Source: a virus
Reading direction: 5' to 3' (one strand)
DNA length: 64,000 nucleotides
Virus record (IMG/VR): IMGVR_UViG_3300037851_000215
Span: 30,219 to 94,218 of that record
Shown here one piece after another: positions 1-64,000 of this stretch; the first letter of the stretch is position 1; each line of letters opens with the position of its first letter. The notes under the pieces were generated by a model. It was given only the letters and a program-made list of their open reading frames with translations. It made no database searches and had not been told where the DNA came from. The position numbers and the translations under genes were made by a program.

Positions 1-3000
1 TTTGTTGATTTAAGGGGAGTGACAGAATAAAATCTCTAAGATAATCTTTTTTAGTTTCTTTAAATTCTTCGTCTCTAAAACGATTACTTATATAATTATT
101 TAGACGTTCTTTTTGTATATCAGATAATATTTCATTTAATGCTTGTCTATAATTATTATATTTATATTTAGCTAATGAAACAATTTTACCATTTATAATA
201 CGATGTTGATTAAGCATAGCAAATAATGTAGTATTTTGTAGATAATGTTCACCAATATCATTCATAAAATACATACTATTTGTACTTAATAAATCTTTCT
301 TTAACATTCCGCTAGTATAATCTTTTTCATTAGTATTTTGAGTTATATCAAAATATTTAATTAAAGCATTAGTTAATGTACCTGATTTTAATTTACCTAG
401 TGTATTAATCATATCAGGAATAGCTGCAATATACATTTTATCTGCTTTAGTTAAATCGGCATTATTGAAATACCACCCAGCAACAGATTCAAGTTGATTT
501 TGTATTTTACCAAATACAATGTTATTTACACCAGCAGTAATATTAAACCACATATTTTTAGCAGAAGAATATTTAATCATAATTTTAGCTATTTTGGTAA
601 AAGTACCTTCATCTATATCAAAATTACCATAATAAATAGCTTCAATCCATTCTGCTAAATGTTTTTCTAAATTAGTACCTTGACCCTTTTTAGTACCAAT
701 TACTGTTTTATCTAATGTTCTACCTGCTAATTTATTTTTTAATAATTCATTTTTACTATTTCGTTTATTAAAATCCATTTGACGTAATCTATGTAATGAA
801 GCATCTATATCAAATTTCATACCCATTTTAGCTTTATATATATTAGCTTCTCGTATAAAATTAGAAAATACTTCATATAGATTATAGTTAATACGTTTAG
901 CATTTAATTCAATATTTTCAGCACGTATTTTTTTATTTTTATCACGAACTTCTGCTAATGAATTAAAACTACCTCTACCAGCTTGTCTTATATCATTTAA
1001 TACATCTTTTTCATAATCTTCTAGTGTTTCATTAAATCGTCTATCTCTAAACTTAATTTCTTCCTCACGTCCTAAAAATTGAACCATTGGAATACCAAGT
1101 ATATAAACAAGTTCATCATTCATACCGACAAATGAATCACTTTTTTTATTTGCAGCATGACTTTCATACCATGCTTCAAGTTTTTCACTGATAGACATAT
1201 TCTCTTTATCAAAAGCAGACATAGTAGGAATAAATCCATCATTCAATATAGTTTTTCTACCAAAGTAATCAGTATATTTACTAATTATTTCAGTAAGTTT
1301 ACTATAAATAGGATCATCTTTAATAGCTTTCCATTCAGGATTTATATATTTATCAGAAGGAGTTTTAAACATACTATCTCCCATTCTAACATATGTTTTA
1401 TCTCCTTTCTTAATGAAATTACGCTTTTTCCATTCGTTAAATTCATATTCAATTAATTCTTCTTGTTTTTGACTTATAACTTTTTGAACTTCTTCATCAG
1501 AAACAGCAGTAATTTCATTATCCCTAAACCATGCAAGAGCACCATTTATATAACTAGGTGTACCTTTACCGTAAGTTTTAGTTAAATATCTAAATCTGTT
1601 AGCTTTATCAGTATAATATTGTTCCCAATTATATTTTTGAACTAGTTTACCTGTACGTTTACCATTTTTAATTTCAAGATATTTAATAAAATCGGCTTCA
1701 GTAATAGCAGTTAAAGGTTTACCTAATTTAGCAATAAGTAAATTTTCAAATTCAACTATATCTACATTACCTTCTCTTTTACCTTTATTCATAGCTATAC
1801 TGAATTTTTTTACTAAATTAGCTACAAATGCATTGTTAGTATCAGATAATGCATCTAACCATAGTTGAACGTAACTTTCATCATCAGCTACTTCAAATAT
1901 CTTACGTAAACCATCTAATATTTCAGGATTACTTGTATAATTTAATAATTCAGCTTCATAATAACTTTCTAATAATTTATTAAATTTATTATTAGCATTA
2001 TCTATTTTAGTACTTAAGTTTTGTAGTTCTTTAATAAGATTATTAATTATACGTTCTTCTTCAATAAAATTATCTCCATCTACAGATGTAAGTTCTTTAA
2101 TATGAACCCACCCCTTTAAAAAAGAAAGTGCCTTTGACATAAAACCAGTAAATTCTTTTCTCTTAATAGGATCATTTATTATATCAGTCATATTAGCATT
2201 TTCATACTCATCTAACCGTATAAGTAAACCACCTTTAAATTTATTATCTGGTTTAGAAAGTAATACATTACTTGCATATTGTAATGTTGCAGTAAGAGCA
2301 GTAGCAAAATTAGCAAGTCCTATTTCTGTAATTTCTCTTTCTAATCCTAATCCTTTAAGCATATCAAATAATTCTTTAGCTTGTTTATTAGCTGTATTAA
2401 TTCTTATAAGATTAGGAAGATTACCATATATTCTCTTAATAAGTTGATCTGCTGTATTAATTGCATTATTAACTGATTGAACAGGAGAAGAAGTATAAGA
2501 AGAAAATTTAATGGAAAGTTGAGGATTATCTGGATATAATTCATTTAATATTTCAGCTAATGCTCTTGCTTGATTTATATTACTAGTTGCAAATTTATCA
2601 GTAAGTACTTTATTTCTAGCATTAATACTTAGTTCACGAATTAATTCAGGATTTTGTTTAGCCCATTCTCTCCAAGCATTAAGATATGCATTCCATTGTT
2701 GTTCTCTAGTAATATTACCTAATGCTGGTTTACCTTTACCTTCCTTAATACTTAAATATCCTTTTACACTTACTTGATAATATTCTTCAATAGACATTTT
2801 ATGAGTAAGTGTACTTAACTGTCCAGTTGTATCATGTAATTGTTCTAATTGTGCACCTGGATTTAAAATAGCATAAAATGCACTAAATCTTTTATCTCCT
2901 GCACTTGATACTTCATATGATTTAGTAGAATATCTTGACCATGTATAATGAGTTCCTTTAGTATTTATATCTATTTCTTCTTCTATTCCACTAGCATTAT

Positions 3001-6000
3001 CATTAGCAACTGCATTATCTAACAATTTGTCAATAGTACCAATGTATTTATATTCAAATTGCTGTAAATCATTAGCAGCATCTAAATGATTGTCATGAAT
3101 ATAAGATATATCCCAACCTTCTTTTGCACTCCATTCTTTTCTAGCAGCAAGTGTACTTAAATCAATCTTATGTGGAGTTCTAGTAATTTGTATATATTCA
3201 CTAGTACCTTGTAATCTAACAAATTGACCTATTTTAAGTTTTTCCCATTTTTTAGCTTCATTACCGTGTCTAGTAGTAGCAGTTCTATGACCGGCTCTAA
3301 CTAAATCTAATGTAGTAGTGTATTCTTTAAGTTCGTCTCTAAACTTACCATCTTTAATACTCATATTCATAGCAAGATCGTTAGGATATACATTTTCACT
3401 AATTATATCTTTTTCACGCATCTTACTAATTAATTCCCTATATATTTCATCAGATGCTATAACAGTACCATCTGGTAATTGATTATTATTTGGAAATATA
3501 CTTTTAGATTCAACTTCATTTTCATTTAATTTAGGAACAGGATAATAATAATATGTACCAGTTATTTGATCATTTTCATCAATATTAACATAGTCAATTA
3601 CTTGTTTAAAAACAATCCATTCTACTTTATCTTTTTCTCTAATTTGAAGTTTAATGAATTTGGCTTTACGTACATTATTCCATGCTCTACTTGTATTTAT
3701 ATCATTCCATTTATTAGCAGGAATAGATATTATTCCATTGTTATTTGGTCTAAATAAAGGTAATTGTATATTTACTTCATCTCCTTGAAAATCACGAATT
3801 TTTGTAAATTGTGCTTCTTTAATTACACCACCATCTGGAACAAGTAAATTATTTCTCCAATTAGTACGCAATATCATATCAAAATAATCAATTCCAAATA
3901 ATGAAGCAATTAATTCATTTATTTCATTTTCTTTAGCTAATGTAAGTTTATTTGCAGTAGCTATTCTAAGTTTACTTTCTAAATGACTACTTAAATTAAT
4001 TCCTTTTTCATTATCTGTACCTTCAATAAATGCTTCTGTACTATTTGAAAAAATACTAACAGGAAGTAATTTACTATATGAATTAAAACCAAATGTAAAA
4101 CCAGATGTTAAATATTCGTATTTAACTAAATTTCTAGCAAGTACTCTTTCATATATATCATCACTATACCATAATGTAGTAAACGACTCAGTCATAGCAT
4201 TTGGAATATCATTAGGTATTAAATTAATTAAATGATATCCATTTCTTTCTATATCTGTAATTAGTAATTTAGTATCTAAATAATTTAAAATATGATTACT
4301 ATTATAATTACGTTGATCTAATAATAATTTAATTTGATTAGCTGCACTAAGTTCTTCAAATGCACTTATATTAGTTAAATCTCTAGTATTTACTTTTAAA
4401 TTTACATCAGTATTAATACCAAGAATTCTATGTTTTTCTGTAGTATTCATAGTATTTAACCAAGGTAAATCTTTAATAGCAGCAGTAGTTAGATATTTAT
4501 TAATTCTATTACTTAACTGTTTATCATATTTAACTTGATTAATATAATTAAATATTTCAGATTTGATATATTTTACTACATCTGTTTCACTTAGAAAATA
4601 ATTACTAAATGCTTTAAGACTTAATAAATTAGAAAATGTTAAAAATTGTTCTAGAATAGGATAAACACTTTCTTTATTTATTCCGAAATATTTAGGATAA
4701 ATAGCTACTGCTGCATTAGTTGTACCAACATCTAATAGACCACGTTCTGCAAATCTATTTATACTATATTCTAGTGAATTGGTAGTAGTAAATGTAGGTC
4801 CAGCACCAATACTATCAGTATTAAAAATATTTACTGCATCTGTAATTGTTTGTGCATAATGTTTATATACTTTAAATGTTTCAAGTAATTGTAATTGATA
4901 ACGTATGTGTTGTTCTAATTGTTCTAATCTAGCTTTATCAGCATTATCGCTTTTTAATATTGCATCTATTTCTTCTGCTGTAGTTGTATTTAAATTATCG
5001 AACAATCTATTAAATTCTATATTTATAGGTGTGTTATTTTTATATCCTAATATACCATATAAATAAGATTGTGCTTCATCACTATATGGAATAAATATAT
5101 TTTTACCTTTACTAATTTCATTATCCCAAGATTGTACAGATTTACCTGTACGTTTATTTATAAGTTTATATAAAATAGTTTGATATTTAGTTTTAATAAT
5201 ACTTATTTCTCTACCACGTTGAATAGTATGTAAATTATCAAAAAAGAATTCACTTAATTCACGTACAATAGGTTGATTAATTAATGTAGTAGATACATCA
5301 TAAGTAGAACCAATACTAACTAATAATTTCCAAATAGGAAGAGTATATTCATTAACATTATTAGGCAATGGTTTCCTACCTGCATCCAATACGTTAGCTG
5401 TAATTTGTGCAGAATATGTATCTATATGTTTACCTAAAACGTTAACAAAAGTATTAGCAGGATTATTAGTTAAATATCGATGTGTTACAATTGCATATTC
5501 TTTATTATTACGTGTCTCAAATCTAACATCCTGTTTGTAGTTTTTAATTAATTCTTTTTTATCTATTTCATTAGTAATTTCATATTCAATAATAGGTAAT
5601 GTATCTAAAACAGTACCAATAAATGGACTATTTCTATCAATATTATTTGCTAAAGTAATTCTAGCAATTTGAGCAATAGCATTAAACCTATCAATAGAAA
5701 TAGTAGTTCCTTTTAGATTAACACTTTGTTGTGATTTATCTCTATATTCTTGCTGACCAGCGAATGTAAGAATATTACTATTTTTACTAAATGGAAATAA
5801 TACTTTATTTATTTTACTATTTATTTTTTGAATATCATCAAAACTAGAAGTAAAAATAGTTTCTAAAAAATGTGCTGGATTAGTGAGAATAGAATAATAT
5901 ATATCTACAATCTGATTTTCTCTAGCACGTTTAGTATTTTGTGCTGAAATACTCCAATTTTCAATTATAGCTTTAACTTTATTTTTCAAAGCTATATATT

Positions 6001-9000
6001 CAGGTGTGCTTTTATAATTTATAAATGCTTCTCCGAAATCAGATTGCGTTTTAGCAAACAATTCTTCATGTAAATCAGTAAGATTATAAAGTAAAATTCG
6101 TTTGTTTTTACCTTTTGATTTAGTAAGTTTAATTTCAATATCACGAATTTTATTTACTACTTGTGTTAATCTAGCATCATTTTGAATATAATTATTTAAT
6201 TCAGTATTTTGTTCTTTATATTGTTTTATTAAATTATTGTAATCTGTTAATATAGAAATAATAGTACTTACATTATGTTCTTGCGATAATACGTGAATTA
6301 AATCTTCTTTACTGTCTAATATTGCAGTTACTCTATTATTTAAATCATTTTCTGTAGTACCTGTTATATATTCAATAGTTGATATTTTATCAGATTTAAC
6401 ACCATCTATAGTTTCATATTTACGTTGTAAATTATACAACATACTGTATACAGTATCCATATCAAAGTCAGAACCTGTTTGAGTAATAAATTCATCAGGT
6501 AATACTATAGCAGGACTGTTACTATCTGGTAAAAAACCAACTACTTTAAAAACATACATACTATATTTAGCTTCAGTAGGAATACGATAACCTATCATAG
6601 TCCTTACTTTATCTGGTATAGTATTAATATCAACTAGTTCACCCTCTTTATAAAAATATTTACTCCATCTAGGAAGTAATACTTCTGCTTCAATTATTTT
6701 TACACCATTTTCATCAAATGTTATATTTGATCGTAATTTAAGATCATTGCGTGAAGTAATTTCATTATGCCAATTTATTCCAGTAGTATTTTCAAGTTCA
6801 GATTGTTTTACTCCTTTCTTTTTATTCATAAATACAGATGACATCTGAGCAGCATGAACTCCAGGAAATTTCTGATTTGTAACACCGTTTGTAATAATAC
6901 TTGTTAAAAGATTTTCAAATTTATTTACAAAAGGACTAAAGAAAATAGGAAGATTAGCATAACCATTATTACCTATATTTAATGAATATACTACGTTTTT
7001 AGGTAAACCTCTATTTATTGCTTCTTTCTGTAATACTTCTAATATCTTTTCATATTCTATTTCACCTACAATGTTACCATTATTATCAATACTAACATCA
7101 AATGGTAACATAGTCTTATTTGCACTATGCCATATATTATTATTAAGTAAATCAAAATATTGAGTTTTTAAATCTTTACCTAATGTTTCAACACCATTTA
7201 TATTATATTTAGTATTATCATTTATATTTAAAATAATTTTCTTTGCTATCTGTCGTCCTAATGTATTTACTTCTTCCAATATATGATCTGGAATTTCTAA
7301 TTGCATATGAAGTCCTTTGTAATTATAAGGACGTTTACCTAAAGTAAGTTCATTAATAATATCGTTATCATCTAGTAATTTACCTTTTTTATCTGTTACA
7401 GTACCTATATGTAATGAACCTACTTTTTCAGCACTTGCAAAATTAAGTTGTCCAATTCCAACCTGTTTCATTAATTTATTAATAGTAGAAAGATCTAGAT
7501 CTTTAATTAAATCAGGAGTTAATACTATTTCTGCATTTTTAATTTGAACAGGAACCATTTTCTGCAATTCATGTGAATATTCAAAATCATAAAAAAAATT
7601 CTTTTGAATAGCAGCAAATTTAGAAATTTCATCTCTATTTAAAGGTGCTTTATCTCTAACTTTGTCAATAATATCTTTATATGAATCATATAAACCAAAA
7701 CCTTTAATTCTATTTATAAATTCTTCAAAAGTTATTAAAGATACTGAGTCAGCACTATCATTTCTTAGATAAGGGGATGTTATATTATATATCTTTAATT
7801 CTATAGCAGATAACTTAGGTATATTATTATCTATCTCTTCATCAGTGTATACTTTATTAAGTTTATTTATACGATATGTAGTAGTACCATCTGGATCTAA
7901 TATCTGATGTGTCATACGTACTAATTCATTATATATTTTAGATTTTAAAACTACATCTGATACAGTACTAGCATAAAATACACCAGGATTACTGTTAGAA
8001 AGACCATTAGCCAATACTTCACCAGCACGTTTGTTTAAGTCGGTTTGTGATATATAATCGGCAATACTACCATGAAATAATCTAGTTTGTTCTATATTAA
8101 ATAGATATGTATTTAAAGCATATTCTAATATAAATGTATTATATGTTTTATTTTTTAATAATTTATTAAGATTATCACTATAAACTACATCTCTATTTTC
8201 ATTGCGTAAATAACTATTACTAATATAATCATAATATATGCCTAATTTAGAAATAGCTGTATTAGTTTGTTGCTGAATAAATCTAAGTACATAATTTTCT
8301 AATAAACTTTTAAAATTAGTACCATTCATATCACTAGATAGTGCAACAGCTAAACTAGGACTATTAAGTAAGTGTTCAGTAAATGATAAACCATTTAATT
8401 TAAAATCATTAAAGGTAGTCATTTTACCTTTATTTATAACACTCATATTTTGTAATGAAAATACATTACCACTATTAGCTAAATCAAGTTCTAATTCATT
8501 ATTTTCATTTAGTTTAAATGATAAATAATTCTTATTTTGATTTTCATCTAATTTATAATGATAATATTTTTGAGTAGATGTACTTACATCTGCAATATTA
8601 GATTTTAATTTAACTTTACCATCTTCTATTATAACACTACCATCTTCATTTAATTCAAATAGAATTTCTTTAGCAGTTTGCATTGCAATCATTTCATCAA
8701 TGACTACATTAAATAATGCTTTAAAAATAGGAGTATCTTTTATTTTATTTAATCTTTCTTCATTAGGTATATTAGCTGATAGAATACTATAAAAATTGTT
8801 ATTTAATTCAATAATAGGTACTTCAAACAACATAGTATGTTTTCTATCAGATGGATTAAGTAAAGGCATTATAGCAGTTTCTTTACCTACTATTTCCTTT
8901 TTACTATTATATTTATATCTACCACCTGCAAGATAATAAACTAAACTTTTAAGTGTCCAATCAAATCTAGCTAAATCTGAATATTCAGTACCTTTATTAT

Positions 9001-12000
9001 CATCACGATTTTTACTACCTTGATATACAAAATTCTTAAATATAGATAGATTATGTTTATTAATACTATTATATCCTAATGGTATTTTTTTACCTTTTTC
9101 TATAGTATAGTTTAATATACCACGACCTTGTTCAATTAAATTACTGTTATCTATACGATCCCCCCATAAAATAAGAGAATGCTGATTACTTGGAACAAGC
9201 GCATATTTAGAAAGAAAAGCAAATATAGATTCATCAGTACCATTACGTAGTTCTTCAAAGAAATTACTAATAAAGCTAGGATTTCTAGGATCGAATATTA
9301 AATTTCCTTTTGTATTAATAGAACTATGATTAAAATGATCTATTCTAAGAAATTTAACTACATCAGCTAATTCACGTAATCTACCAAATTGATTAAAAAC
9401 TAATTTATTGTTTTTATTATAAAGTTCAATAAATCCATTAGCTTCTTTAGCAAATGGATCACTTTTAATATAAAGAAGTGGATTTAATAGTTTATTTATT
9501 ATATTATTACGATTAAGATTATATTGATGCATTATAGTATCAACATCTATCTCAATACCTATTTTATCAAATAACATAGATAACTGTTCAGCAGTTTGAT
9601 CAGTTATAACTGTAAAATTACGAGTTTGTACAAATAATGCTTTATATGCATCATTCCATTCTTTAATCCAAGTATCATTAAATATATTGTTTTCAGCTCT
9701 ACTTATAATAGTTCCAATCCATTTATTAGCAGTAACATATGAAAATGAATTTCTATTACCACTATCTAAATCGATCTCATTACCTAAATAAGTAGTTCTA
9801 TTTAAATCTATATATGAGTCAATAATAGCTTTATCATATTGAGTAAACCATGTATTAAGTAAATCTGGATCACTTTTAAGTTTTTGCCAAACTTGTAATA
9901 ATGATTTACCTATTGGATGTTTACTATTAGATGCAAAATTAAATAGAATATCTAACATTTCTTGCTTATTTAAAGCAGTACTCATTAAATCTCTAATTTT
10001 ACCATCTAATTCATTATAATTAAGATAGTTAGCAAACCCTGTTGGAGTTTCAATATTTGATTTAAATATATAATTACCTTGATTATCTATAGTAATATTA
10101 TTAGGATCAATCTCAGGAGTAGTATTAATTAAATTTTTAATTCTATCACTAACTGTTAAAATAGGATGTTGTGAAATAGCTTGATTTTCATCCCAACTTT
10201 TAGATAGATATTCTACTTCATCTTGATAATCATCTATTTCATGAATATTATATCCATTATTTTGAGAAAGTTGAACTTTAAATAATTTCCAAAATGCATC
10301 ATTATTTCTAACTTCATCACGAAGTTTAAATAATAATTCTTTTTGTGAATTAGAAAGTTGTCCTAATTCAGCCGCTTTACGACCTTTTCTACCTATATTA
10401 GCAAGTATATCTTGACGTATTTTATTCTCAGCAATATCTTTTACTTTAAGATTTTTATATTCATTACTAATTTCAATAAAAGCAGCTGTCATTAAACTAA
10501 TAACATTTCTTTCTTCTTCTTCAGAGAAATTAGAACCTGTTTGTTCAGTATTAAGTGTAGAAAGATAAGAAGAAAATTTAATAGTTTGTAAATCACGTTC
10601 TTCATTAATTTCTACTTCCCACCAATCATTTTCATATTCATCAGTAATACGTTGTGCATTATATAGCTTTTTAAGAATATTACCTATACGATTTTCATAA
10701 AATGCTTCAATAGGTTTGAGTTTTTCTATACCTTGTGATTTTAAGTCTTGTTTTTCTTTTATTTTATTTTCTAATATATATTTAACGTTTTCATTATATA
10801 ATTCAAAAGCTTCATTTTTAATAGTGTTATATCTATTATCAAATTCATTTTTAGTTATTTCTAACCCAGATTTATAATATTTATCACCTTTAACACTATG
10901 TGTTTTATAATAATGTTCTGTTAATCCATCTTCATTACTATCAAATTTATTAGGATTTTGTAAAGTTGGAAATTTATCAATAGTGGCCTTATCGTTTTGT
11001 AATAATTCAATTTCTTTATCAATTCTTCTTATCTCATCAGCAATAGTTCCATGTCCTTCAATCTTAGCAGCAGTTTCACCAGTAGGAAATACAACTTTTT
11101 TAAATTCACGTAAAGCACTATCTTGAACTATAGTTTTAATAAAGAAATTTATCCAATTACTTTCTTTATTAAGAAGTTGAAGAAATTGATTTTTAGATAT
11201 ATCTTGTTCAGTTAATACTGCATATTTATTAAAACTTTTAACAGCTTGTCCTGTATCAAAATATCTTCCTGCTTGTTCATTTGAAATAGGTTTTAATACA
11301 GAATGATATTTACTTGTACCGATAAAATTATCATCTTCATCATAATCATCAGTAATTTCTTGTTCAATTGTTTCTAAAAACCATTTTTCTTCATTTGTTT
11401 TAATTAAACGATCTCCATCAGATTCTCTTAAATCAAATATTTCTTCAGCTACTATTCCTGTTAGTATATCAATATCTCTAGTTTTCTGAAATTCAGATTG
11501 AACTTCAAGAATACGTCTAATATTAATAGTTTGTTGTACTCTTTCAGTATTTAATTCAAATTCTTTATCATATTCTTCTTTAGTAATTTCTTTTCCATCT
11601 TTAGTAAATTTTGATGTATTATTAACAACATCTATATCTATATTAATATTAGATATTGTTTCAGATCTAATATCACTTCTAAACCATCCTATGCTATTAG
11701 TAGGAATACCTCTTCCACCAGGATCTTGTGTAAAAGCAGCATGAGATTGCATAATAGGAACTATTTCAGGTGTTCTAATATCATATTCACGATAATTAGT
11801 TCCACCTGGAGCAGTTAAATTTTCATAATCAGCAGAAGGTAAGCTACCAACATGAGCAATTAATCCACCAGCACCATCATATTCTCTATCACTATAATCA
11901 AATCGTTTTCCTAAATTAACTTCAATAGAATAAGAAAGTGAACTAGATAAATTTAAAATAAGTTCATCTAAATTAACATCCTTAGTATTACTTTGTAGAT

Positions 12001-12271
12001 TAAATAATTGTTTATAACTACTAAATCCACCTATTTCATTTAATGTTTTCTCAATAGTCCAATTATTTTTAGCACCTTTACTAAATATTTCTTTAGCTCT
12101 ATCAGAACTAAGTAAATCAATTACTTTTAATCCTGCATTAATTGTATATTGATCTAAAGCAGGAGTACTAGTAAAAGATGAAAATTTATTCTGTGATTGT
12201 TGTTTTAAATAACTTTTTAATTCATTCATTGAATTAAAACGCATTCCCTTATATGTAGGTACACAAGCCAT
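1..12271 (-). CDS. Giant virion-packaged DNA-dependent RNA polymerase polyprotein (>=4090 aa, 3' end outside window)
   Basis: Absent from ORF track. ATG at 12271 (MACVPTYKGMRFNSMNELK...). Every stretch I translated by hand is open in this frame, down to the window edge (...ETKKDYLRDFILSLPLNQQ), and the track calls no minus-strand sub-ORF here, implying no internal stop. Beta'-like MIGYRIPTEAKYS and catalytic TQTGSDFDMD (DFDMD at 6455-6469); beta-like segment IQKNFF...PVQIKNAE. Confidence 0.93.
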   Translation of the reverse strand, partial: MACVPTYKGMRFNSMNELKSYLKQQSQNKFSSFTSTPALDQYTINAGLKVIDLLSSDRAKEIFSKGAKNNWTIEKTLNEIGGFSSYKQLFNLQSNTKDVNLDELILNLSSSLSYSIEVNLGKRFDYSDREYDGAGGLIAHVGSLPSADYENLTAPGGTNYREYDIRTPEIVPIMQSHAAFTQDPGGRGIPTNSIGWFRSDIRSETISNINIDIDVVNNTSKFTKDGKEITKEEYDKEFELNTERVQQTINIRRILEVQSEFQKTRDIDILTGIVAEEIFDLRESDGDRLIKTNEEKWFLETIEQEITDDYDEDDNFIGTSKYHSVLKPISNEQAGRYFDTGQAVKSFNKYAVLTEQDISKNQFLQLLNKESNWINFFIKTIVQDSALREFKKVVFPTGETAAKIEGHGTIADEIRRIDKEIELLQNDKATIDKFPTLQNPNKFDSNEDGLTEHYYKTHSVKGDKYYKSGLEITKNEFDNRYNTIKNEAFELYNENVKYILENKIKEKQDLKSQGIEKLKPIEAFYENRIGNILKKLYNAQRITDEYENDWWEVEINEERDLQTIKFSSYLSTLNTEQTGSNFSEEEERNVISLMTAAFIEISNEYKNLKVKDIAENKIRQDILANIGRKGRKAAELGQLSNSQKELLFKLRDEVRNNDAFWKLFKVQLSQNNGYNIHEIDDYQDEVEYLSKSWDENQAISQHPILTVSDRIKNLINTTPEIDPNNITIDNQGNYIFKSNIETPTGFANYLNYNELDGKIRDLMSTALNKQEMLDILFNFASNSKHPIGKSLLQVWQKLKSDPDLLNTWFTQYDKAIIDSYIDLNRTTYLGNEIDLDSGNRNSFSYVTANKWIGTIISRAENNIFNDTWIKEWNDAYKALFVQTRNFTVITDQTAEQLSMLFDKIGIEIDVDTIMHQYNLNRNNIINKLLNPLLYIKSDPFAKEANGFIELYNKNNKLVFNQFGRLRELADVVKFLRIDHFNHSSINTKGNLIFDPRNPSFISNFFEELRNGTDESIFAFLSKYALVPSNQHSLILWGDRIDNSNLIEQGRGILNYTIEKGKKIPLGYNSINKHNLSIFKNFVYQGSKNRDDNKGTEYSDLARFDWTLKSLVYYLAGGRYKYNSKKEIVGKETAIMPLLNPSDRKHTMLFEVPIIELNNNFYSILSANIPNEERLNKIKDTPIFKALFNVVIDEMIAMQTAKEILFELNEDGSVIIEDGKVKLKSNIADVSTSTQKYYHYKLDENQNKNYLSFKLNENNELELDLANSGNVFSLQNMSVINKGKMTTFNDFKLNGLSFTEHLLNSPSLAVALSSDMNGTNFKSLLENYVLRFIQQQTNTAISKLGIYYDYISNSYLRNENRDVVYSDNLNKLLKNKTYNTFILEYALNTYLFNIEQTRLFHGSIADYISQTDLNKRAGEVLANGLSNSNPGVFYASTVSDVVLKSKIYNELVRMTHQILDPDGTTTYRINKLNKVYTDEEIDNNIPKLSAIELKIYNITSPYLRNDSADSVSLITFEEFINRIKGFGLYDSYKDIIDKVRDKAPLNRDEISKFAAIQKNFFYDFEYSHELQKMVPVQIKNAEIVLTPDLIKDLDLSTINKLMKQVGIGQLNFASAEKVGSLHIGTVTDKKGKLLDDNDIINELTLGKRPYNYKGLHMQLEIPDHILEEVNTLGRQIAKKIILNINDNTKYNINGVETLGKDLKTQYFDLLNNNIWHSANKTMLPFDVSIDNNGNIVGEIEYEKILEVLQKEAINRGLPKNVVYSLNIGNNGYANLPIFFSPFVNKFENLLTSIITNGVTNQKFPGVHAAQMSSVFMNKKKGVKQSELENTTGINWHNEITSRNDLKLRSNITFDENGVKIIEAEVLLPRWSKYFYKEGELVDINTIPDKVRTMIGYRIPTEAKYSMYVFKVVGFLPDSNSPAIVLPDEFITQTGSDFDMDTVYSMLYNLQRKYETIDGVKSDKISTIEYITGTTENDLNNRVTAILDSKEDLIHVLSQEHNVSTIISILTDYNNLIKQYKEQNTELNNYIQNDARLTQVVNKIRDIEIKLTKSKGKNKRILLYNLTDLHEELFAKTQSDFGEAFINYKSTPEYIALKNKVKAIIENWSISAQNTKRARENQIVDIYYSILTNPAHFLETIFTSSFDDIQKINSKINKVLFPFSKNSNILTFAGQQEYRDKSQQSVNLKGTTISIDRFNAIAQIARITLANNIDRNSPFIGTVLDTLPIIEYEITNEIDKKELIKNYKQDVRFETRNNKEYAIVTHRYLTNNPANTFVNVLGKHIDTYSAQITANVLDAGRKPLPNNVNEYTLPIWKLLVSIGSTYDVSTTLINQPIVRELSEFFFDNLHTIQRGREISIIKTKYQTILYKLINKRTGKSVQSWDNEISKGKNIFIPYSDEAQSYLYGILGYKNNTPINIEFNRLFDNLNTTTAEEIDAILKSDNADKARLEQLEQHIRYQLQLLETFKVYKHYAQTITDAVNIFNTDSIGAGPTFTTTNSLEYSINRFAERGLLDVGTTNAAVAIYPKYFGINKESVYPILEQFLTFSNLLSLKAFSNYFLSETDVVKYIKSEIFNYINQVKYDKQLSNRINKYLTTAAIKDLPWLNTMNTTEKHRILGINTDVNLKVNTRDLTNISAFEELSAANQIKLLLDQRNYNSNHILNYLDTKLLITDIERNGYHLINLIPNDIPNAMTESFTTLWYSDDIYERVLARNLVKYEYLTSGFTFGFNSYSKLLPVSIFSNSTEAFIEGTDNEKGINLSSHLESKLRIATANKLTLAKENEINELIASLFGIDYFDMILRTNWRNNLLVPDGGVIKEAQFTKIRDFQGDEVNIQLPLFRPNNNGIISIPANKWNDINTSRAWNNVRKAKFIKLQIREKDKVEWIVFKQVIDYVNIDENDQITGTYYYYPVPKLNENEVESKSIFPNNNQLPDGTVIASDEIYRELISKMREKDIISENVYPNDLAMNMSIKDGKFRDELKEYTTTLDLVRAGHRTATTRHGNEAKKWEKLKIGQFVRLQGTSEYIQITRTPHKIDLSTLAARKEWSAKEGWDISYIHDNHLDAANDLQQFEYKYIGTIDKLLDNAVANDNASGIEEEIDINTKGTHYTWSRYSTKSYEVSSAGDKRFSAFYAILNPGAQLEQLHDTTGQLSTLTHKMSIEEYYQVSVKGYLSIKEGKGKPALGNITREQQWNAYLNAWREWAKQNPELIRELSINARNKVLTDKFATSNINQARALAEILNELYPDNPQLSIKFSSYTSSPVQSVNNAINTADQLIKRIYGNLPNLIRINTANKQAKELFDMLKGLGLEREITEIGLANFATALTATLQYASNVLLSKPDNKFKGGLLIRLDEYENANMTDIINDPIKRKEFTGFMSKALSFLKGWVHIKELTSVDGDNFIEEERIINNLIKELQNLSTKIDNANNKFNKLLESYYEAELLNYTSNPEILDGLRKIFEVADDESYVQLWLDALSDTNNAFVANLVKKFSIAMNKGKREGNVDIVEFENLLIAKLGKPLTAITEADFIKYLEIKNGKRTGKLVQKYNWEQYYTDKANRFRYLTKTYGKGTPSYINGALAWFRDNEITAVSDEEVQKVISQKQEELIEYEFNEWKKRNFIKKGDKTYVRMGDSMFKTPSDKYINPEWKAIKDDPIYSKLTEIISKYTDYFGRKTILNDGFIPTMSAFDKENMSISEKLEAWYESHAANKKSDSFVGMNDELVYILGIPMVQFLGREEEIKFRDRRFNETLEDYEKDVLNDIRQAGRGSFNSLAEVRDKNKKIRAENIELNAKRINYNLYEVFSNFIREANIYKAKMGMKFDIDASLHRLRQMDFNKRNSKNELLKNKLAGRTLDKTVIGTKKGQGTNLEKHLAEWIEAIYYGNFDIDEGTFTKIAKIMIKYSSAKNMWFNITAGVNNIVFGKIQNQLESVAGWYFNNADLTKADKMYIAAIPDMINTLGKLKSGTLTNALIKYFDITQNTNEKDYTSGMLKKDLLSTNSMYFMNDIGEHYLQNTTLFAMLNQHRIINGKIVSLAKYKYNNYRQALNEILSDIQKERLNNYISNRFRDEEFKETKKDYLRDFILSLPLNQQ
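2495..2512 (-). repeat. 18-bp direct repeat copy encoding IKFSSY (identical copy at 10565-10582)
   Basis: Plus-strand ataagaagaaaatttaat at both positions, same reading frame of the RNAP gene. Confidence 0.85.
10565..10582 (-). repeat. 18-bp direct repeat copy encoding IKFSSY (identical copy at 2495-2512)
   Basis: Plus-strand ataagaagaaaatttaat; a related NKFSSF peptide lies at 12173-12190. Confidence 0.85.
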
Positions 12272-12466: not shown

Positions 12467-12687
12467 ATCAAAAATGATTTAATTACCATCAATAATTCTT
12501 GTTCATCTTTTAATCCTATAAGTTTTAATGTAACAGTTTCTTCAGAACCATAATAAGGTATTTTATGTTTTCTAATTGTTCGTCTAGAATCAGCTATAAT
12601 TAAATCTACAGTCCAATATCCATTTGTAGCAACAGAAGTTTTTTCTGCACTCCAATATCCTTCTGTTGCTATTTCTAATGTGTTCAT
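12454..12687 (-). CDS. Hypothetical protein (77 aa), duplicated (I/V)AT(E/N)GYW motif
   Basis: ORF track; ATGA overlap with upstream gene; IATEGYW / VATNGYW internal repeat. Confidence 0.75.
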   Translation of the reverse strand: MNTLEIATEGYWSAEKTSVATNGYWTVDLIIADSRRTIRKHKIPYYGSEETVTLKLIGLKDEQELLMVIKSFLICLS

Positions 12688-13235
12688 AGTCTAGTAACTA
12701 CAGTAGATGTAGCATCACTTTCTATATCTAATGTAATATTATCAGTAGTTCGTTTACCTGTAACTTTATCAACGGTCATAGGATTACCTGATACTAGTCC
12801 TTGTAGTTCATGAAGTTCACTTAATTTAGTAGCTTGTTCTGGTGTAAGTCCACCACCACCACCATCAGATGAAAAAGATATTGCTTGTACTGGCTGTTGA
12901 TAATTAATTCTAACTACCCAACTACCTACTGTATTAACAAATGGATCTCCACCACCTTCAACTAGTAAAATACCGTCTATTATATTTAAGGTATGATTTG
13001 CTTCTTGTGGTCGTATTTTCCAATCATTTATTAAAAATGCATATATAGGTATTTTAGTTCCAGTAGATGGATCGATATCATTTCCACCTACTTGTGTTAA
13101 AGCAAGTGGATATTTAGAATTATCACTAGTTAAAAACCAATCAACCCATCTACTCCAAAGATCTCTAACACTTACTGTAGTAGTACCAGAAGTAAGAGTT
13201 ATAATCTTAGTTGAACCATCTATCGAATATGCCAT
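12684..13235 (-). CDS. Putative virion appendage protein (183 aa)
   Basis: ORF track; beta-rich N-terminal domain (MAYSIDGSTKIITL...RDLWSRWVDW), poly-Gly linker, short C-terminal domain. Confidence 0.55.
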   Translation of the reverse strand: MAYSIDGSTKIITLTSGTTTVSVRDLWSRWVDWFLTSDNSKYPLALTQVGGNDIDPSTGTKIPIYAFLINDWKIRPQEANHTLNIIDGILLVEGGGDPFVNTVGSWVVRINYQQPVQAISFSSDGGGGGLTPEQATKLSELHELQGLVSGNPMTVDKVTGKRTTDNITLDIESDATSTVVTRL

Positions 13236-13237
13236 AA

Positions 13238-14911
13238 TTAAACAATATATGCTCTATCTGTTTCTGCCGTAAGTGTTATAATAATACCTTTACTTTGACT
13301 TATAACACCAGTTGCTACTACTGGTTTAGCACTACCTGCATTACCAGCAATAACTGTTACAGGAGCATCTTCTCCTTCTGAACCAGCTCCTCTTTGATCA
13401 TTATTAGTATAATCATATGTAAAGCTAATAGATCCTGCGGTTATAGTACCTACAATTGGATTACCATCTTTATCATTTACGGTTATAGCATTACCTGTAC
13501 CATAATCATAACCTAAATTACTACCAGCATCATCATTAGTAAAGTACATTCTATAATAACCTGTACCACCTGAAGTAAGAGCAGCATTAAAATTAAGTGT
13601 ACCAGCAGATGCATATGGATATTCTCTAGTAGCAGCACTATTATCATAAAATACAATACTGTTCAAATCAGCATCTTGTATGCCTTGTATTAATACACCA
13701 CTACCACCACCAGCTGGGTTTGTAGGTATGTAATAACCACATTTAAGTGAAGGACCAACAAAGTTTAAAAGAAGAGATGCAGTTGTACCAATAACACTTG
13801 TACCACCAGATACAGCATTTATATTACCTGTCTGACGTAGTTGATATTGAATTTTAGTATATATTTCTTTAAGGGTGGCTGTAACAGGAGTTGCTCTTTG
13901 ACAAGTAAAAGATAAATTAGAACCTGATGAAATTGTACCAGTAACTGTTATAGTAGTAGCAGTATTACTAACAATAGGAAATGAAACACCTGCGTCAGTA
14001 CCTTCGTAAATAGTAAGAACACCGCCATTGTATGCACCAACTGTCATACCACCTGTTGCAGATGTTAATATAGAACCAGCACCAGGAGCTGAACCATCTA
14101 TACCAGAATGTGTACCTACATCTATAACTATACCAAAGTTTCTACCTGTTGCACTTTCTATTGTACGAGTAAATGAACCAGAGAAATATTTAATATTTAT
14201 TTCAGTATATGGTGATATAGTAGCTACATTAGCATCGGTATTTGTAATATCCAAATCAGCACCAACTGCAATAGGTAATGCAACTTTAAAAGCACCTGTA
14301 CTAGTTTCACCTACATCTGTCAGAATAGCATCATCATATAAATAACTTTCTTCTCTACAAAACAATTTAAAATAAGTTCTATTATCAAAATTACCATTAG
14401 ATGCATCACCATATACCTGTATTGCTTCATTTGGAGCATCATCATATGTAAAATTATATGCTGAACCACCAGAAGCTCTTTGATAATAAAATTGTGCTCC
14501 ACTAGGAAAACCAGATGCAAGAGCAACCATACCTACATATTGTCTATTTAATACTCCAGCAACAGAATATTCACTCCATCCAGCATCTCGTATCATTTGT
14601 CTACAAACATCATCATTTGGTTTCCATCCATTATATGTACCACCAGGATCTTGTCCAAATATATACTGACCTGATCTAGCATCAAGTACGTTCATTGGAA
14701 AAGGATAAGGTTGATATGTAGCAGTAGTCCATAGATCAATAAATTTTGCCCATAATGCATTACCAGTAACACCATCTTTTGCTACTAGACTACCATACGG
14801 AGCAAGATCAAATGTCTTACTAGAAACATCTAACCATATATTTCCATCTACACCTAAATTTCCAGCTGACGAACTAACGATCAGATCATCTGGATCAATA
14901 ATTTTAGCCAT
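13238..14911 (-). CDS. Putative virion structural/filament protein (557 aa)
   Basis: ORF track; G/T/S/A-rich beta-type composition; starts MAKIIDPDDL, ends ETDRAYIV. Confidence 0.55.
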   Translation of the reverse strand: MAKIIDPDDLIVSSSAGNLGVDGNIWLDVSSKTFDLAPYGSLVAKDGVTGNALWAKFIDLWTTATYQPYPFPMNVLDARSGQYIFGQDPGGTYNGWKPNDDVCRQMIRDAGWSEYSVAGVLNRQYVGMVALASGFPSGAQFYYQRASGGSAYNFTYDDAPNEAIQVYGDASNGNFDNRTYFKLFCREESYLYDDAILTDVGETSTGAFKVALPIAVGADLDITNTDANVATISPYTEINIKYFSGSFTRTIESATGRNFGIVIDVGTHSGIDGSAPGAGSILTSATGGMTVGAYNGGVLTIYEGTDAGVSFPIVSNTATTITVTGTISSGSNLSFTCQRATPVTATLKEIYTKIQYQLRQTGNINAVSGGTSVIGTTASLLLNFVGPSLKCGYYIPTNPAGGGSGVLIQGIQDADLNSIVFYDNSAATREYPYASAGTLNFNAALTSGGTGYYRMYFTNDDAGSNLGYDYGTGNAITVNDKDGNPIVGTITAGSISFTYDYTNNDQRGAGSEGEDAPVTVIAGNAGSAKPVVATGVISQSKGIIITLTAETDRAYIV

Positions 14912-14935
14912 ATTTCTTTTATGTTTATATTGTTA

Positions 14936-17209: not shown

Positions 17210-17211
17210 AA

Positions 17212-17847
17212 TTAATCTGTTAAATAACTTATACCACCATAATGACCAAGTTTAATATTTCTATTGATCCAAATATCTCCACCTATCTTTCTCCATCTCA
17301 TACCAAAAGCAGCATCTTCATGTACAAGTAATTTATTTTCATTATCTATATAAGGTGAATAATAATCATGTATAAGTATTCTATTAGGCCCATGTATTAA
17401 AGTAGTAACTTTATTAAGTTTTTCAAATACTGATTTTTTAATTAAATTAAAACCAGCACCAACATAATTTACTTTAGTTATTGGTTCATCTGTTGTTTCT
17501 TCACATGGATTAACACAAAGTTCAACTTTTTGCCATTTTTTTAATCTATAAGGAGCAGCTGCAAATTCAACATCCATATCTAATAATACTAAAACATCTT
17601 TTGGACGAAATTGTATATCTGCATCAATACAAAGTAAATGAGTATAACCTAAATCTAAAAAACTAGCAGCAATATGATTTCTTGTTGATGGAATAAATGA
17701 TTCATTAGATGGAGTTATTATATCACAAGCTATATTTTTTTTAGTTAACAGTTTAGATAAAGAAAACAGAGAACTAGCTGTATAACTATGCATTTGTGCT
17801 CCATAACAAGGAACAGCTACTAATATACCTATTTTAGAATAATCCAT
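17212..17847 (-). CDS. GT-A fold glycosyltransferase-like protein (211 aa)
   Basis: ILVAVPCY start, RN motif, THLLCIDADI (DxD), VGAGFNLIKK, HEDAAF, LGHYG. Confidence 0.8.
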   Translation of the reverse strand: MDYSKIGILVAVPCYGAQMHSYTASSLFSLSKLLTKKNIACDIITPSNESFIPSTRNHIAASFLDLGYTHLLCIDADIQFRPKDVLVLLDMDVEFAAAPYRLKKWQKVELCVNPCEETTDEPITKVNYVGAGFNLIKKSVFEKLNKVTTLIHGPNRILIHDYYSPYIDNENKLLVHEDAAFGMRWRKIGGDIWINRNIKLGHYGGISYLTD

Positions 17848-17850
17848 ATC

Positions 17851-18342
17851 TTATTTATTCTGTTTAGCAATAATAGTTTTCATATTACCATTATTATCTC
17901 TAATAATGTCAAAAGACCAACTATTTAATTTATTTAAACTTGTATTTATACTTTTTAATTCATCTTTAAGAGATGAATTTTTAATTGCACTTTCTATTGC
18001 AAGTAATTCTTTTGAATTATTAATTTTAGATATAGTTAATAAATTATTATCAATCTTAGTTAAAACATCTGTATAATCAGTAGTTTTAATTTTTAAATTT
18101 ATATCACTAATTAAAATAGATAATATATCAATTAATGATTTAACTTCATCTAATTTATTGTTAATAACAATAGGTTGTTGTTTTAATTTGATATCAGTAC
18201 TTAAAACATTAGTAGTACTTGTTAAATTAGATAATGCTTCAGTTAATTTATCTAATAAATCTAGTAATACATTATCTTTTTGATTAGAAGATAAAGCAAT
18301 AATATCACGAAGTTCTTCTAATATTATCTTATATTCATCCAT
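17851..18342 (-). CDS. Coiled-coil protein with C-terminal beta-hairpin-like tail (163 aa)
   Basis: ORF track; L/I/N heptad-like pattern ending SWSFDIIRDNNGNMKTIIAK. Confidence 0.7.
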   Translation of the reverse strand: MDEYKIILEELRDIIALSSNQKDNVLLDLLDKLTEALSNLTSTTNVLSTDIKLKQQPIVINNKLDEVKSLIDILSILISDINLKIKTTDYTDVLTKIDNNLLTISKINNSKELLAIESAIKNSSLKDELKSINTSLNKLNSWSFDIIRDNNGNMKTIIAKQNK

Positions 18343-63856: not shown

Positions 63857-64000
63857 ATGTCACTATTAAATCTTCCTTTATCTGACTTAGCAGTATCAAT
63901 TAGATTATTAAATATACTTGCTTCAGCTAATATCACTACACTTTCTCAACTAGTTGAAAAGAGTGCTACTGAATTAATGGCAATTCGACATTTCAGTAAA
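63857..64000 (+). CDS. RNA polymerase alpha-subunit C-terminal-domain-like protein (partial, runs off right edge)
   Basis: Not in ORF track. MSLLNLPLSDLAVSIRLLNILASANITTLSQLVEKSATELMAIRHFSK follows the alpha-CTD pattern (L..P...L.(L/V)(S/T).R..N.L....I.....L......EL.....(F/L)GK). Confidence 0.72.
   Translation, partial: MSLLNLPLSDLAVSIRLLNILASANITTLSQLVEKSATELMAIRHFSK

What the first reader, a model, noticed from the sequence alone, without database searches (positions are those of the whole stretch)
1..12271. Unannotated >=4090-aa virion RNA polymerase built as a polyvalent protein carrying extra enzyme-like domains
Seen: one frame from ATG 12271 to the window edge. It holds an N-terminal module (aa ~35-565), a two-barrel RNAP core (DFDMD at aa ~1935), an ASCH-like domain (aa ~2970-3080), a NADAR-like domain (aa ~3110-3245) and a long helical C-terminal region. 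Established: crAss-like phages package an RNAP and deliver it into the host. Inference: this phage uses its injected RNAP as a carrier for nucleic-acid-acting enzymes, present before any phage gene is expressed. That would be a pre-loaded counter-defence or transcription-support toolkit. This is my main candidate for an undescribed system.
Basis: partly seen in the sequence, partly recalled or inferred. Interest (0 to 1): 0.85.

Follow-up and report, generated by a model that had tools for sequence, protein, structure and literature searches.

The report
Enzyme cassette on crAss-phage virion polymerase
This crAss-like phage's giant, probably injected RNA polymerase carries a swappable pair of small enzyme-like domains (ASCH fold and NADAR fold), most likely a ready-made tool for stripping host-made ADP-ribose or similar marks; the polymerase itself is an ordinary member of a known family.

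Summary
One stop-free frame runs from the ATG at window 12271 off the window edge. In the 94,218-bp genome it is 4,410 aa.

- Its core matches the solved phi14:2 virion RNAP (6VR4, E 9e-23), including the DFDMD loop.
- Giant size is normal for this family: crAss002 gp33 has 4,245 aa and p-crAssphage gp44 has 4,070 aa.
- The long C-terminal region is a conserved family module, not an add-on.

Both accessory assignments survive folding.
- aa 2967-3082 is an ASCH fold (YqfB, Z 10.4).
- aa 3108-3247 is a NADAR fold (three NADAR structures at Z 8.4-7.2, next hit 3.7). Invariant Glu, Lys and Asp sit where NADAR catalytic residues lie.
- Neither domain is detected by its Pfam model.

The pair sits in a variable slot. 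The closest relatives carry a DUF4326-like domain there, or nothing, or end at that point. ASCH and NADAR recur together on other giant RNAP proteins, and ASCH is often nested inside a NADAR loop. The N-terminal module is a separate mobile family of unknown function. A K-F-S-S-[YF] peptide marks three module joints.

Packaging, injection and enzyme activity are all inferred. The concept is already published (polyvalent proteins, virion-packaged NADARs), and this scan has found similar cassettes on other crAss-like genomes. I rate it a new variant of a known kind.

The parts
2..12271 (-). Window part (aa 1-4090) of the 4,410-aa virion-RNAP polyprotein gene. The last 320 codons and the stop lie beyond the window's left edge (genome 29257-30219).
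12161..12187 (-). Joint motif 1, K-F-S-S-F-T-S-T-P (aa 29-37), directly before the N-terminal module.
   Evidence: 3 occurrences against 0.009 expected by shuffling; found in no other ORF of the genome
10613..12163 (-). N-terminal module (aa 37-553). A mobile family of unknown function, mostly stand-alone, with many invariant polar residues (PGGTNY.E, GHAQF, GWFRSD, RRILE.QSD, NQFLQLLNK, FP.G.T..K.EGH).
   Evidence: no Pfam, PDB or Atlas identification; absent from closest relative P0091
10553..10579 (-). Joint motif 2, K-F-S-S-Y-L-S-T-L (aa 565-573), directly after the N-terminal module.
3992..9370 (-). RNAP core region (aa ~968-2760) shared with Intestiviridae 'RNAP catalytic subunit' genes at 22-28% identity.
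6416..8134 (-). Stretch (aa 1380-1952) that aligns with the solved phi14:2 gp66 virion RNAP (PDB 6VR4).
   Evidence: E 9.1e-23
6455..6469 (-). Catalytic DFDMD motif (aa 1935-1939), aligned to DFDID of gp66.
3026..3373 (-). Domain A: ASCH-fold (PUA-like) domain, aa 2967-3082. R2996, T2999, R3001 and E3051 correspond to YqfB K21, T24, R26 and E74.
2531..2950 (-). Domain B: NADAR-fold domain, aa 3108-3247 (phrog_9995). Family-invariant E3162 and D3225 and near-invariant K3170. A 19-aa insert sits at the loop where other proteins carry a nested ASCH.
2483..2509 (-). Joint motif 3, K-F-S-S-Y-T-S-S-P (aa 3255-3263), at the start of the C-terminal part. Conserved in P0091 (LKFSSYSSS) and degenerate in P0068 (IKAASYTSS).
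2..1378 (-). Window part (aa 3632-4090) of the conserved C-terminal module (aa 3632-4407), the 'unknown RNAP subunit' of fused crassvirus RNAP genes.

Best explanation
The gene encodes this phage's crAss-type virion RNA polymerase as a single 4,410-aa fusion. The order is: N-terminal module of unknown function, two-barrel RNAP core, a variable cassette slot, and a conserved C-terminal module.

The slot holds an ASCH-fold domain followed by a NADAR-fold domain, and these work as a pair. I propose that the NADAR domain cleaves the N-glycosidic bond that links ADP-ribose to a nucleic-acid base. I propose that the ASCH domain supplies nucleic-acid or modified-base recognition, or a second hydrolytic activity.

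The cassette is part of a protein that is made late, packaged, and ejected with the DNA. It would therefore be present at the incoming genome before any phage gene is expressed. There it could remove host-imposed ADP-ribosyl (or related) marks from the DNA that the polymerase must transcribe, or from its first transcripts.

Shown here: gene structure, RNAP homology, the two folds, conserved candidate catalytic residues, slot variability, and recurrent pairing and nesting of the two domains.

Inferred: packaging and ejection (by homology with phi14:2 gp66), enzymatic activity, substrate, and the counter-defence role.
For: RNAP identity:
- 6VR4 match at E 9.1e-23, including the catalytic loop.
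- Homology with annotated crassvirus RNAP genes.
- Last gene of the late-strand block, with the gp45/gp32-type neighbour upstream.

NADAR fold:
- AF2 model pLDDT 88.6.
- The three NADAR structures rank 1-3 of 48,161 chains (Z 8.4, 7.2, 7.2), and the next hit is Z 3.7.
- Foldseek top hit 8bat, probability 0.90.
- Invariant E and near-invariant K lie on the first core helix, and an invariant D follows the last strand. This matches the E/K/D catalytic set of DarT1-type NADARs (PMC11543638, PMC11125620).
- Fusion partners of the family are SLOG and DUF4326, the published NADAR context (PMC9503650).

ASCH fold:
- pLDDT 88.2.
- YqfB at Z 10.4, rmsd 2.4 A, 93 of 102 residues aligned, with ASCH members filling ranks 1-6.
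- Foldseek probability 1.00 for the best ASCH-superfamily hits.
- The GxRTATTR motif aligns with YqfB GRKTITIR.

Pairing: in 14 of 14 proteins from the domain-A search that also hold B, the two domains are nested (8) or adjacent (6).

Slot variability: P0091 has a DUF4326-like domain there, P0068 has nothing, and P0060 ends there.

Early-action context of stand-alone homologues: left-end early block of an N4-like phage and the head-gene cluster of phiKZ.

Precedent: phage NADARs neutralise DarTG1 by de-ADP-ribosylating phage DNA (PMC11257639).
Against: - No Pfam NADAR or ASCH match at E<=1, either on the protein segments or in a six-frame genome search.
- hhalign of the domain-B profile against E. 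coli YbiA finds nothing, so NADAR membership rests on fold and residue pattern only.
- The fold tools return no coordinates, so the catalytic residues were not superposed in 3D.
- In domain A the YqfB general-base Lys is Arg in most members.
- Most domain-B proteins lack domain A (71 of 75 longer ones), so the pairing is frequent on these giants but not obligatory.
- The published survey argues that phage NADARs mainly target soluble ADP-ribose derivatives, not macromolecular adducts (PMC9503650).
- The host and its defence systems are unknown.
- There is no virion proteomics for this phage.
Confidence: 0.5

Rival explanations
1. The cassette destroys small ADP-ribose-derived molecules, not adducts on DNA or RNA. 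Candidates are immune signals such as cyclic ADP-ribose isomers, or toxic NAD+ breakdown products. It would blunt NAD+-based host immunity in the first moments of infection.
For: [quoted passage not shown] The slot in the nearest relative holds a DUF4326-like domain, which is proposed to process phosphates on ADPr breakdown products. Family partners are SLOG domains.
Against: All phage NADARs tested so far act on guanine-ADP-ribosylated DNA (PMC11257639, PMC11125620). The partner ASCH/PUA-like fold is typically a reader or eraser of modifications on nucleic acids or nucleosides. One tethered copy per virion is a poor sink for a diffusible signal.
Confidence: 0.2
2. The cassette supports the polymerase's own transcription. 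For example, it trims NAD-derived 5' caps or removes base modifications (such as N4-acetylcytidine) from the first transcripts or from host tRNA. On this reading it is RNA housekeeping, not counter-defence.
For: The closest structural match of domain A is the ac4C amidohydrolase YqfB, with T, R and E equivalents conserved. The cassette is covalently attached to an RNA polymerase. The domain-B family is also found fused to RNase H, helicases and a T7-type RNAP fragment.
Against: The cassette is absent or replaced in the nearest relatives, which have the same polymerase. It is missing from all four cultured or reference Intestiviridae RNAPs, so it is dispensable for transcription itself.
Confidence: 0.12
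3. The 4,410-aa product is a polyprotein cut at the K-F-S-S-[YF] joints. The cuts would release the N-terminal module, the RNAP with its cassette, and the C-terminal module as separate virion proteins, matching what relatives encode as separate genes. This can be true together with any functional reading of the cassette.
For: Three motif copies against 0.009 expected, found only in this ORF. They lie exactly at module limits defined independently by homology: the N-module ends at ~553, and P0091/P0068 homology resumes at 3239-3242. P0091 starts at our aa ~610 and P0060 joins at our aa ~532. Site 3 is conserved in P0091.
Against: No protease with this specificity is known or identified here. 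Other fused crassvirus RNAPs lack the motif. Sites 565 and 3255 are identical over 18 nt, slightly more than codon bias predicts (P about 0.04), so the repeats could be recombination joints instead of selected cleavage sites.
Confidence: 0.25
4. The two domains are catalytically dead remnants kept as spacers, packaging signals or structural parts of the ejected complex.
For: No Pfam-level similarity to active families. Lys to Arg at the YqfB base position. The slot tolerates loss (P0068).
Against: The domain-B family keeps 15 invariant, mostly polar, positions across 44 sequences at 45-63% identity. Domain A keeps its motif across 28 sequences at 20-45% identity. Both families also exist as free-standing ~125-170-aa proteins in unrelated phages, which a mere spacer would not.
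Confidence: 0.08

Closest known systems
Cellulophaga phage phi14:2 gp66 virion RNA polymerase (PDB 6VR4; 10.1101/2020.03.07.982082), and the fused RNAP giants of Intestiviridae (p-crAssphage gp44, crAss002 gp33)
   Same: Sequence homology of the core, including the DFDxD loop. The core plus C-terminal-module layout is as in gp44/gp33. The genomic position is the same: last gene of the late block, next to the gp45/gp32-type protein.
   Different: Only 22-30% identical. It has an extra ~570-aa N-terminal module, and an ASCH + NADAR cassette that none of the four reference proteins has. Five extra ORFs separate it from the gp45-type gene.
Polyvalent proteins of phages and conjugative elements (Iyer, Burroughs, Anand, de Souza, Aravind 2017; PMC5512222)
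   Same: Several unrelated effector-type domains in one huge polypeptide. Domains are shuffled between relatives. The predicted use is delivery with the DNA for early action. A homologue of the N-module is fused to ART-PolyVal PF18760.
   Different: The scaffold here is a two-barrel virion RNAP, not a MuF, relaxase or primase-type anchor. That paper mentions neither ASCH, NADAR nor crAss-like phages.
Phage NADARs: T4 AdfN (gp30.3), NADAR-Bas32, NADAR-Bas60 (PMC11257639); DarG1/BC4488 NADARs (PMC11543638; PDB 8BAT, 8BAU)
   Same: YbiA/NADAR fold. A Glu/Lys pair plus an Asp after the last strand, as in the DarT1-associated clade. Phage-borne and positioned for early action.
   Different: Not recognised by the Pfam NADAR model. 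Embedded in a giant virion protein instead of a free early protein. Often interrupted by, or paired with, an ASCH domain. Activity is untested.
E. coli YqfB and other ASCH-domain proteins (PMC6972931; PDB 9KYF)
   Same: Same small beta-barrel fold (Z 10.4). Thr nucleophile, Arg oxyanion-hole and Glu positions are conserved.
   Different: The general-base Lys is Arg in most members. An extra N-terminal helix and C-terminal helix are present. No Pfam match above threshold. The context is a phage polyprotein.

Membership tests
crAss-type virion RNAP (phi14:2 gp66-like) | Sequence homology to the solved, biochemically validated enzyme | tested here: met
   phmmer of aa 1300-2100 against PDB: 6VR4_A at E 9.1e-23
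crAss-type virion RNAP (phi14:2 gp66-like) | DFDxD catalytic motif | tested here: met
   DFDMD at aa 1935, aligned with DFDID of gp66
crAss-type virion RNAP (phi14:2 gp66-like) | Two double-psi beta-barrels in one chain | not tested
Implied only by the alignment to 6VR4.
crAss-type virion RNAP (phi14:2 gp66-like) | Gene in the 'transcription block' at the end of the late/structural strand, beside the zincin-type RNAP-associated protein | tested here: met
   ORF map. The 1,988-aa ORF matches crAss002 gp32 and p-crAss gp45, but five extra ORFs intervene.
crAss-type virion RNAP (phi14:2 gp66-like) | Packaged in the virion and ejected into the host | not testable with these tools
   Needs virion proteomics or infection assays.
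NADAR superfamily | YbiA fold (helical core flanked by two small sheets) | tested here: met
   8bat Z 8.4, 2b3w Z 7.2, 8bau Z 7.2 rank 1-3; next hit Z 3.7; Foldseek probability 0.90
NADAR superfamily | Catalytic Glu and Lys on the first core helix (E88/K95 of E. coli C7 NADAR) | tested here: inconclusive
   Invariant E3162 and near-invariant K3170 lie on or just after model helix 61-69. The spacing is one residue longer, and no 3D superposition was available.
NADAR superfamily | Charged residue at the last strand (Glu, Asp or His by clade) | tested here: inconclusive
   Invariant D3225 directly follows the last strand, residues 122-124 of the model. Position inferred, not superposed.
NADAR superfamily | Match to Pfam PF08719 | tested here: not met
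   No hit at E<=10 on the segment or at E<=1 in the six-frame genome search. hhalign against YbiA gives probability 0.3.
NADAR superfamily | ADP-ribosyl N-glycohydrolase activity | not testable with these tools
   Biochemical assay needed.
ASCH superfamily (PUA-like) | ASCH beta-barrel fold | tested here: met
   YqfB Z 10.4, PH0355 9.0, PF0470 8.3, ZmASCH 7.9; Foldseek probability 1.00
ASCH superfamily (PUA-like) | N-terminal G-x-K-x-x-E/T-x-R motif and YqfB-type Thr-Lys-Glu triad with Arg oxyanion hole | tested here: inconclusive
   G-H-R-T-A-T-T-R aligns with G-R-K-T-I-T-I-R. T2999, R3001 and E3051 are kept, but Lys is Arg (R2996) in most members.
ASCH superfamily (PUA-like) | Match to Pfam PF04266 | tested here: not met
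   None for this protein. Only sub-threshold hits (E 0.005-0.04) in four homologues.
Polyvalent proteins (Iyer et al. 2017) | Two or more unrelated effector-type domains in one polypeptide of a phage or plasmid | tested here: met
   N-module, RNAP, ASCH and NADAR in one ORF
Polyvalent proteins (Iyer et al. 2017) | Domain order and content shuffled between related proteins | tested here: met
   Domain A lies before the core 19 times and after it 24 times. Slot content differs among the nearest relatives.
Polyvalent proteins (Iyer et al. 2017) | Delivered into the recipient cell with the DNA | not testable with these tools
   Inferred from RNAP homology only.

The most novel reading that the evidence does not exclude
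ASCH plus NADAR, nested or in tandem, is a dedicated composite eraser of base-linked ADP-ribose on nucleic acids. The ASCH barrel would take the place of the DNA-binding fold extension of DarT1-type NADARs. crAss-like phages would tether this eraser to the injected polymerase so that it travels along the very DNA being transcribed first. The slot that holds it would be a hot-swappable socket (NADAR, DUF4326 or empty) bounded by a conserved joint peptide, so that phage lineages can re-arm against the ADP-ribosylating defences of their hosts.
Probability: 0.25. Interest if true: 0.75.

Novelty: new variant of a known kind. Interest (0 to 1): 0.55.

Why it matters
crAss-like phages are the most abundant viruses of the human gut, yet almost nothing is known about how they survive host defences in the first minute of infection. 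A counter-defence or repair enzyme built into the injected polymerase would act before any phage gene is expressed. The natural presence, swap and absence series among close relatives gives a ready-made comparison for testing this. The work also defines two uncharacterised, widespread families: a divergent NADAR-fold family that is also found in phiKZ-like and N4-like phages, and a ~520-aa N-terminal module with enzyme-like conservation. It also shows a recurrent ASCH-in-NADAR nested architecture that could reveal how NADARs recognise nucleic-acid substrates.

Tried and rejected
- Whole-protein Pfam, NCBIfam and PDB searches found nothing. The whole-protein PDB search missed the 6VR4 match that a shorter segment found, so long queries lose sensitivity.
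- Pfam NADAR and ASCH models against the genome at E<=1: nothing.
- hhalign of the domain-B profile against E. coli YbiA: no relation detected. hhalign of the domain-A profile against YqfB: weak (probability 11%) but in the expected register.
- Profile searches of domains A and B and the N-module against PDB sequences: only chance-level hits.
- Other segments against the PDB: nothing.
- ESM Atlas: no usable lead for the N-module or domain B. The first two calls failed on length.
- tblastn of the N-module against GenBank phages: no match.
- The search for related loci in IMG/VR with the post-cassette stretch: no relatives.
- Complex prediction of domain A with domain B returned 'no answer'. It counts neither for nor against contact.
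- The idea that the KFSSY word is a genome-wide DNA motif was rejected: the 15-nt word occurs only at the in-frame sites of this gene.
- The idea that giant size is itself novel was rejected.
- Literature searches for Crassvirales or crAss-like together with NADAR or ASCH found no description. The library is incomplete, so this is weak evidence of novelty.
Full report
**Observation.** The minus-strand frame from the ATG at window 12271 is open to window position 2 (4,090 aa). The window is bases 30219-94218 of a 94,218-bp virus record rated complete. In the full genome the ORF continues for 320 more codons, giving 4,410 aa at genome 29257-42489. It is the last gene of the long minus-strand (late) block and abuts the plus-strand block. 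DFDMD is at aa 1935. G+C is only ~25% over the gene.

**The gene is a crAss-type virion RNAP of ordinary size.**
- tblastn of aa 1201-2400 finds 140 phage records, all below 60% identity. The best are Intestiviridae genes annotated 'putative RNAP catalytic subunit', at 26-31% identity.
- In crAss002, cr107_1, Rudgehvirus and p-crAssphage the homologous genes encode 4,245, 4,213, 4,098 and 4,070 aa. The last is annotated as a catalytic subunit fused to an unknown RNAP subunit.
- A segment search against PDB sequences matches phi14:2 gp66 (6VR4) at E 9.1e-23, with TGSDFDMD aligned to TGSDFDID. The whole-protein search had missed this.
- BLAST against the four references divides our protein into a shared core (aa ~968-2760), a shared C-terminal module (aa ~3632-4407), and two stretches with no counterpart (aa 1-967 and ~2760-3360).
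- The 1,988-aa ORF upstream matches crAss002 gp32 and p-crAss gp45.

Size and the C-terminal region are therefore family traits, not novelties.

**Domain B (aa 3108-3247).**
- PHROGs gives phrog_9995 (unknown function) at E 3.6e-31. Pfam and NCBIfam give nothing.
- In GenBank phages the domain is absent from crassviruses. It is 41-43% identical to small genes of phiKZ-like jumbo phages and N4-like Achromobacter and Delftia phages.
- The large protein collection holds many ~125-aa stand-alone homologues, a few fused to DUF4326.
- An alignment of 44 members has 15 invariant columns and gives an AF2 model with pLDDT 88.6.
- Against 48,161 PDB representatives, the three NADAR structures take ranks 1-3 (8bat Z 8.4, YbiA 2b3w Z 7.2, 8bau Z 7.2). 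The next hit is Z 3.7. Foldseek's top hit is also 8bat (probability 0.90, E 0.024).
[quoted passage not shown] In domain B, invariant E3162 and near-invariant K3170 lie on or just after the first core helix. Invariant D3225 follows the last strand.
- I could not superpose coordinates. hhalign against YbiA finds nothing, and Pfam NADAR does not hit.

I conclude that this is a NADAR-fold domain with a plausible NADAR-like active site, from a family too divergent for the curated model.

**Domain A (aa 2967-3082).**
- An exhaustive phmmer search finds 108 other proteins. Of these, 58 are at least 2,000 aa, with the domain at varying positions.
- Four homologues give sub-threshold Pfam ASCH hits on the homologous stretch, next to cpYpsA-SLOG and AlkB-type oxygenase domains.
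- The AF2 model (pLDDT 88.2) matches ASCH proteins throughout the top ranks: YqfB Z 10.4 (rmsd 2.4 A, 93 of 102 residues), PH0355 9.0, PF0470 8.3, ZmASCH 7.9. The best ASCH-superfamily Foldseek hits have probability 1.00.
- hhalign puts G-H-R-T-A-T-T-R on YqfB G-R-K-T-I-T-I-R. YqfB K21, T24, R26 and E74 are catalytic (PMC6972931). The equivalents here are R2996, T2999, R3001 and E3051. The general base is therefore Arg, which leaves catalytic competence open.

**The two domains form a linked, mobile pair.**
- Among the 108 domain-A proteins, 43 share RNAP-core similarity with ours (39 of the 58 giants). Domain A lies before the core 19 times and after it 24 times.
- 14 also carry domain B, always next to A: nested inside a loop of B in 8, A then B in 3, B then A in 3.
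- Our protein has the tandem form, with a 19-residue insert at that same loop.
- P0138, a 317-aa protein, has the same A-then-B order.
- In the reverse direction, of 75 longer proteins with domain B only 4 have A, while 18 share our RNAP core. Partners include SLOG, DUF4326, SF1 helicases, RNase H and DNA polymerase B. SLOG and DUF4326 are the published companions of viral NADARs (PMC9503650).

**The slot is variable among the nearest relatives.**
- P0091 (43% identical over our aa 610-4410) lacks the N-terminal module. Between its ASCH domain and the joint LKFSSYSSS it carries a different ~130-aa segment. Pfam's only hit in the whole protein is there: DUF4326, aa 2454-2529, E 0.0032, below the curated cutoff.
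- P0068 passes from ASCH straight to IKAASYTSS with no domain B.
- P0060 fuses a homologue of our 1,988-aa neighbour to the RNAP from our aa ~532 and ends just after ASCH.
- Neither domain is found in the four Intestiviridae references by HMM.

**N-terminal module.** aa 37-553 are homologous to parts of other giants at other positions and to 102 proteins of 300-930 aa. Most of these are stand-alone; one is fused to ART-PolyVal PF18760 and one to a histidine phosphatase. Conservation is enzyme-like, but Pfam, PDB profiles and the Atlas give no identity.

**Joint motif.** I confirm three copies, at aa 29, 565 and 3255, against 0.009 expected. There are none in other ORFs. They bracket the N-module and open the C-terminal part. 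Site 3 is conserved in P0091. The DNA word occurs only at these sites. Sites 565 and 3255 share 18 of 18 nt, and the probability of this from codon bias is about 0.04. Cleavage signal and recombination joint both remain possible.

**Timing context.** The stand-alone domain-B gene is gene 005 in the left-end block of an N4-like phage, upstream of its RNAP II genes. In N4 that block is transcribed by the injected polymerase (established knowledge). In phiKZ it lies directly after gp82, among head structural genes, and is mostly unannotated. Both fit the published view that phage NADARs act at entry (PMC9503650), and T4-type and other phage NADARs neutralise DarTG1 (PMC11257639).

**Known or new.** Polyvalent injected proteins and virion-associated NADARs are published ideas. 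The polyvalent-protein paper does not mention ASCH, NADAR or crAss. The NAD/ADPr survey does not mention crAss or PUA and calls phage NADARs 'typically standalone'. I found no paper linking Crassvirales with NADAR or ASCH. This scan has already reported similar cassettes on other crAss-like genomes. The verdict is a new variant of a known kind.

Noticed in passing
window 12684-18342 (minus strand): Five ORFs (183, 557, 757, 211 and 163 aa) lie between the RNAP gene and the 1,988-aa gp45/gp32-type gene. These two genes are adjacent in crAss002, cr107_1, Rudgehvirus and p-crAssphage.
   Followed up: partly
L011 4001-4363 (phiKZ AF399011.1 79879-80241): The phiKZ homologue of domain B (41% identity, ~121 aa) starts 3 nt after the annotated end of gp82, within the head-protein gene cluster. 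Only its last 117 nt are annotated (PHIKZ082.1), so this looks like an under-annotated NADAR-fold gene.
   Followed up: partly
protein P0060 (4,790 aa; no locus available): In this relative, the homologue of our separate 1,988-aa RNAP-associated protein is fused in frame to the RNAP. Gene fusion and fission in the transcription block is therefore fluid, and its breakpoints coincide with our module joints.
   Followed up: partly
genome 1-60 and 94160-94218 (outside/at window end 63942-64000): The first ~60 bases of the record repeat the sequence at its end (…TAGATTATTAAATATACTTGCTTCAGCTAATATCACTACACT…). This indicates a circular or terminally redundant assembly, although the record is classed as linear.
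   Followed up: no
window 2111-2131 and window 23201-23221; window 1967-2036 vs genome 22680-22750: A 21-nt exact repeat is shared between the RNAP gene and the 1,988-aa gene, and there is a 70-nt stretch of 75% similarity to a plus-strand region. These may relate to the dispersed ~20-bp motif flagged by another first-stage note.
   Followed up: no
aa ~4270-4298 of the ORF (genome ~29590-29680, beyond the window's left edge; L001): A hydrophobic stretch (…LCAVLAAGFVLKSL…) is followed by a run of five Asp near the C-terminus of the conserved C-terminal module. This could be a membrane-active or metal-binding element of the ejected protein.
   Followed up: no
window 10613-12163 (aa 37-553): The N-terminal module defines a large family with no Pfam assignment (102 homologues). 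It has about 45 invariant positions in six tight motifs, which is worth a fold prediction of its own.
   Followed up: partly
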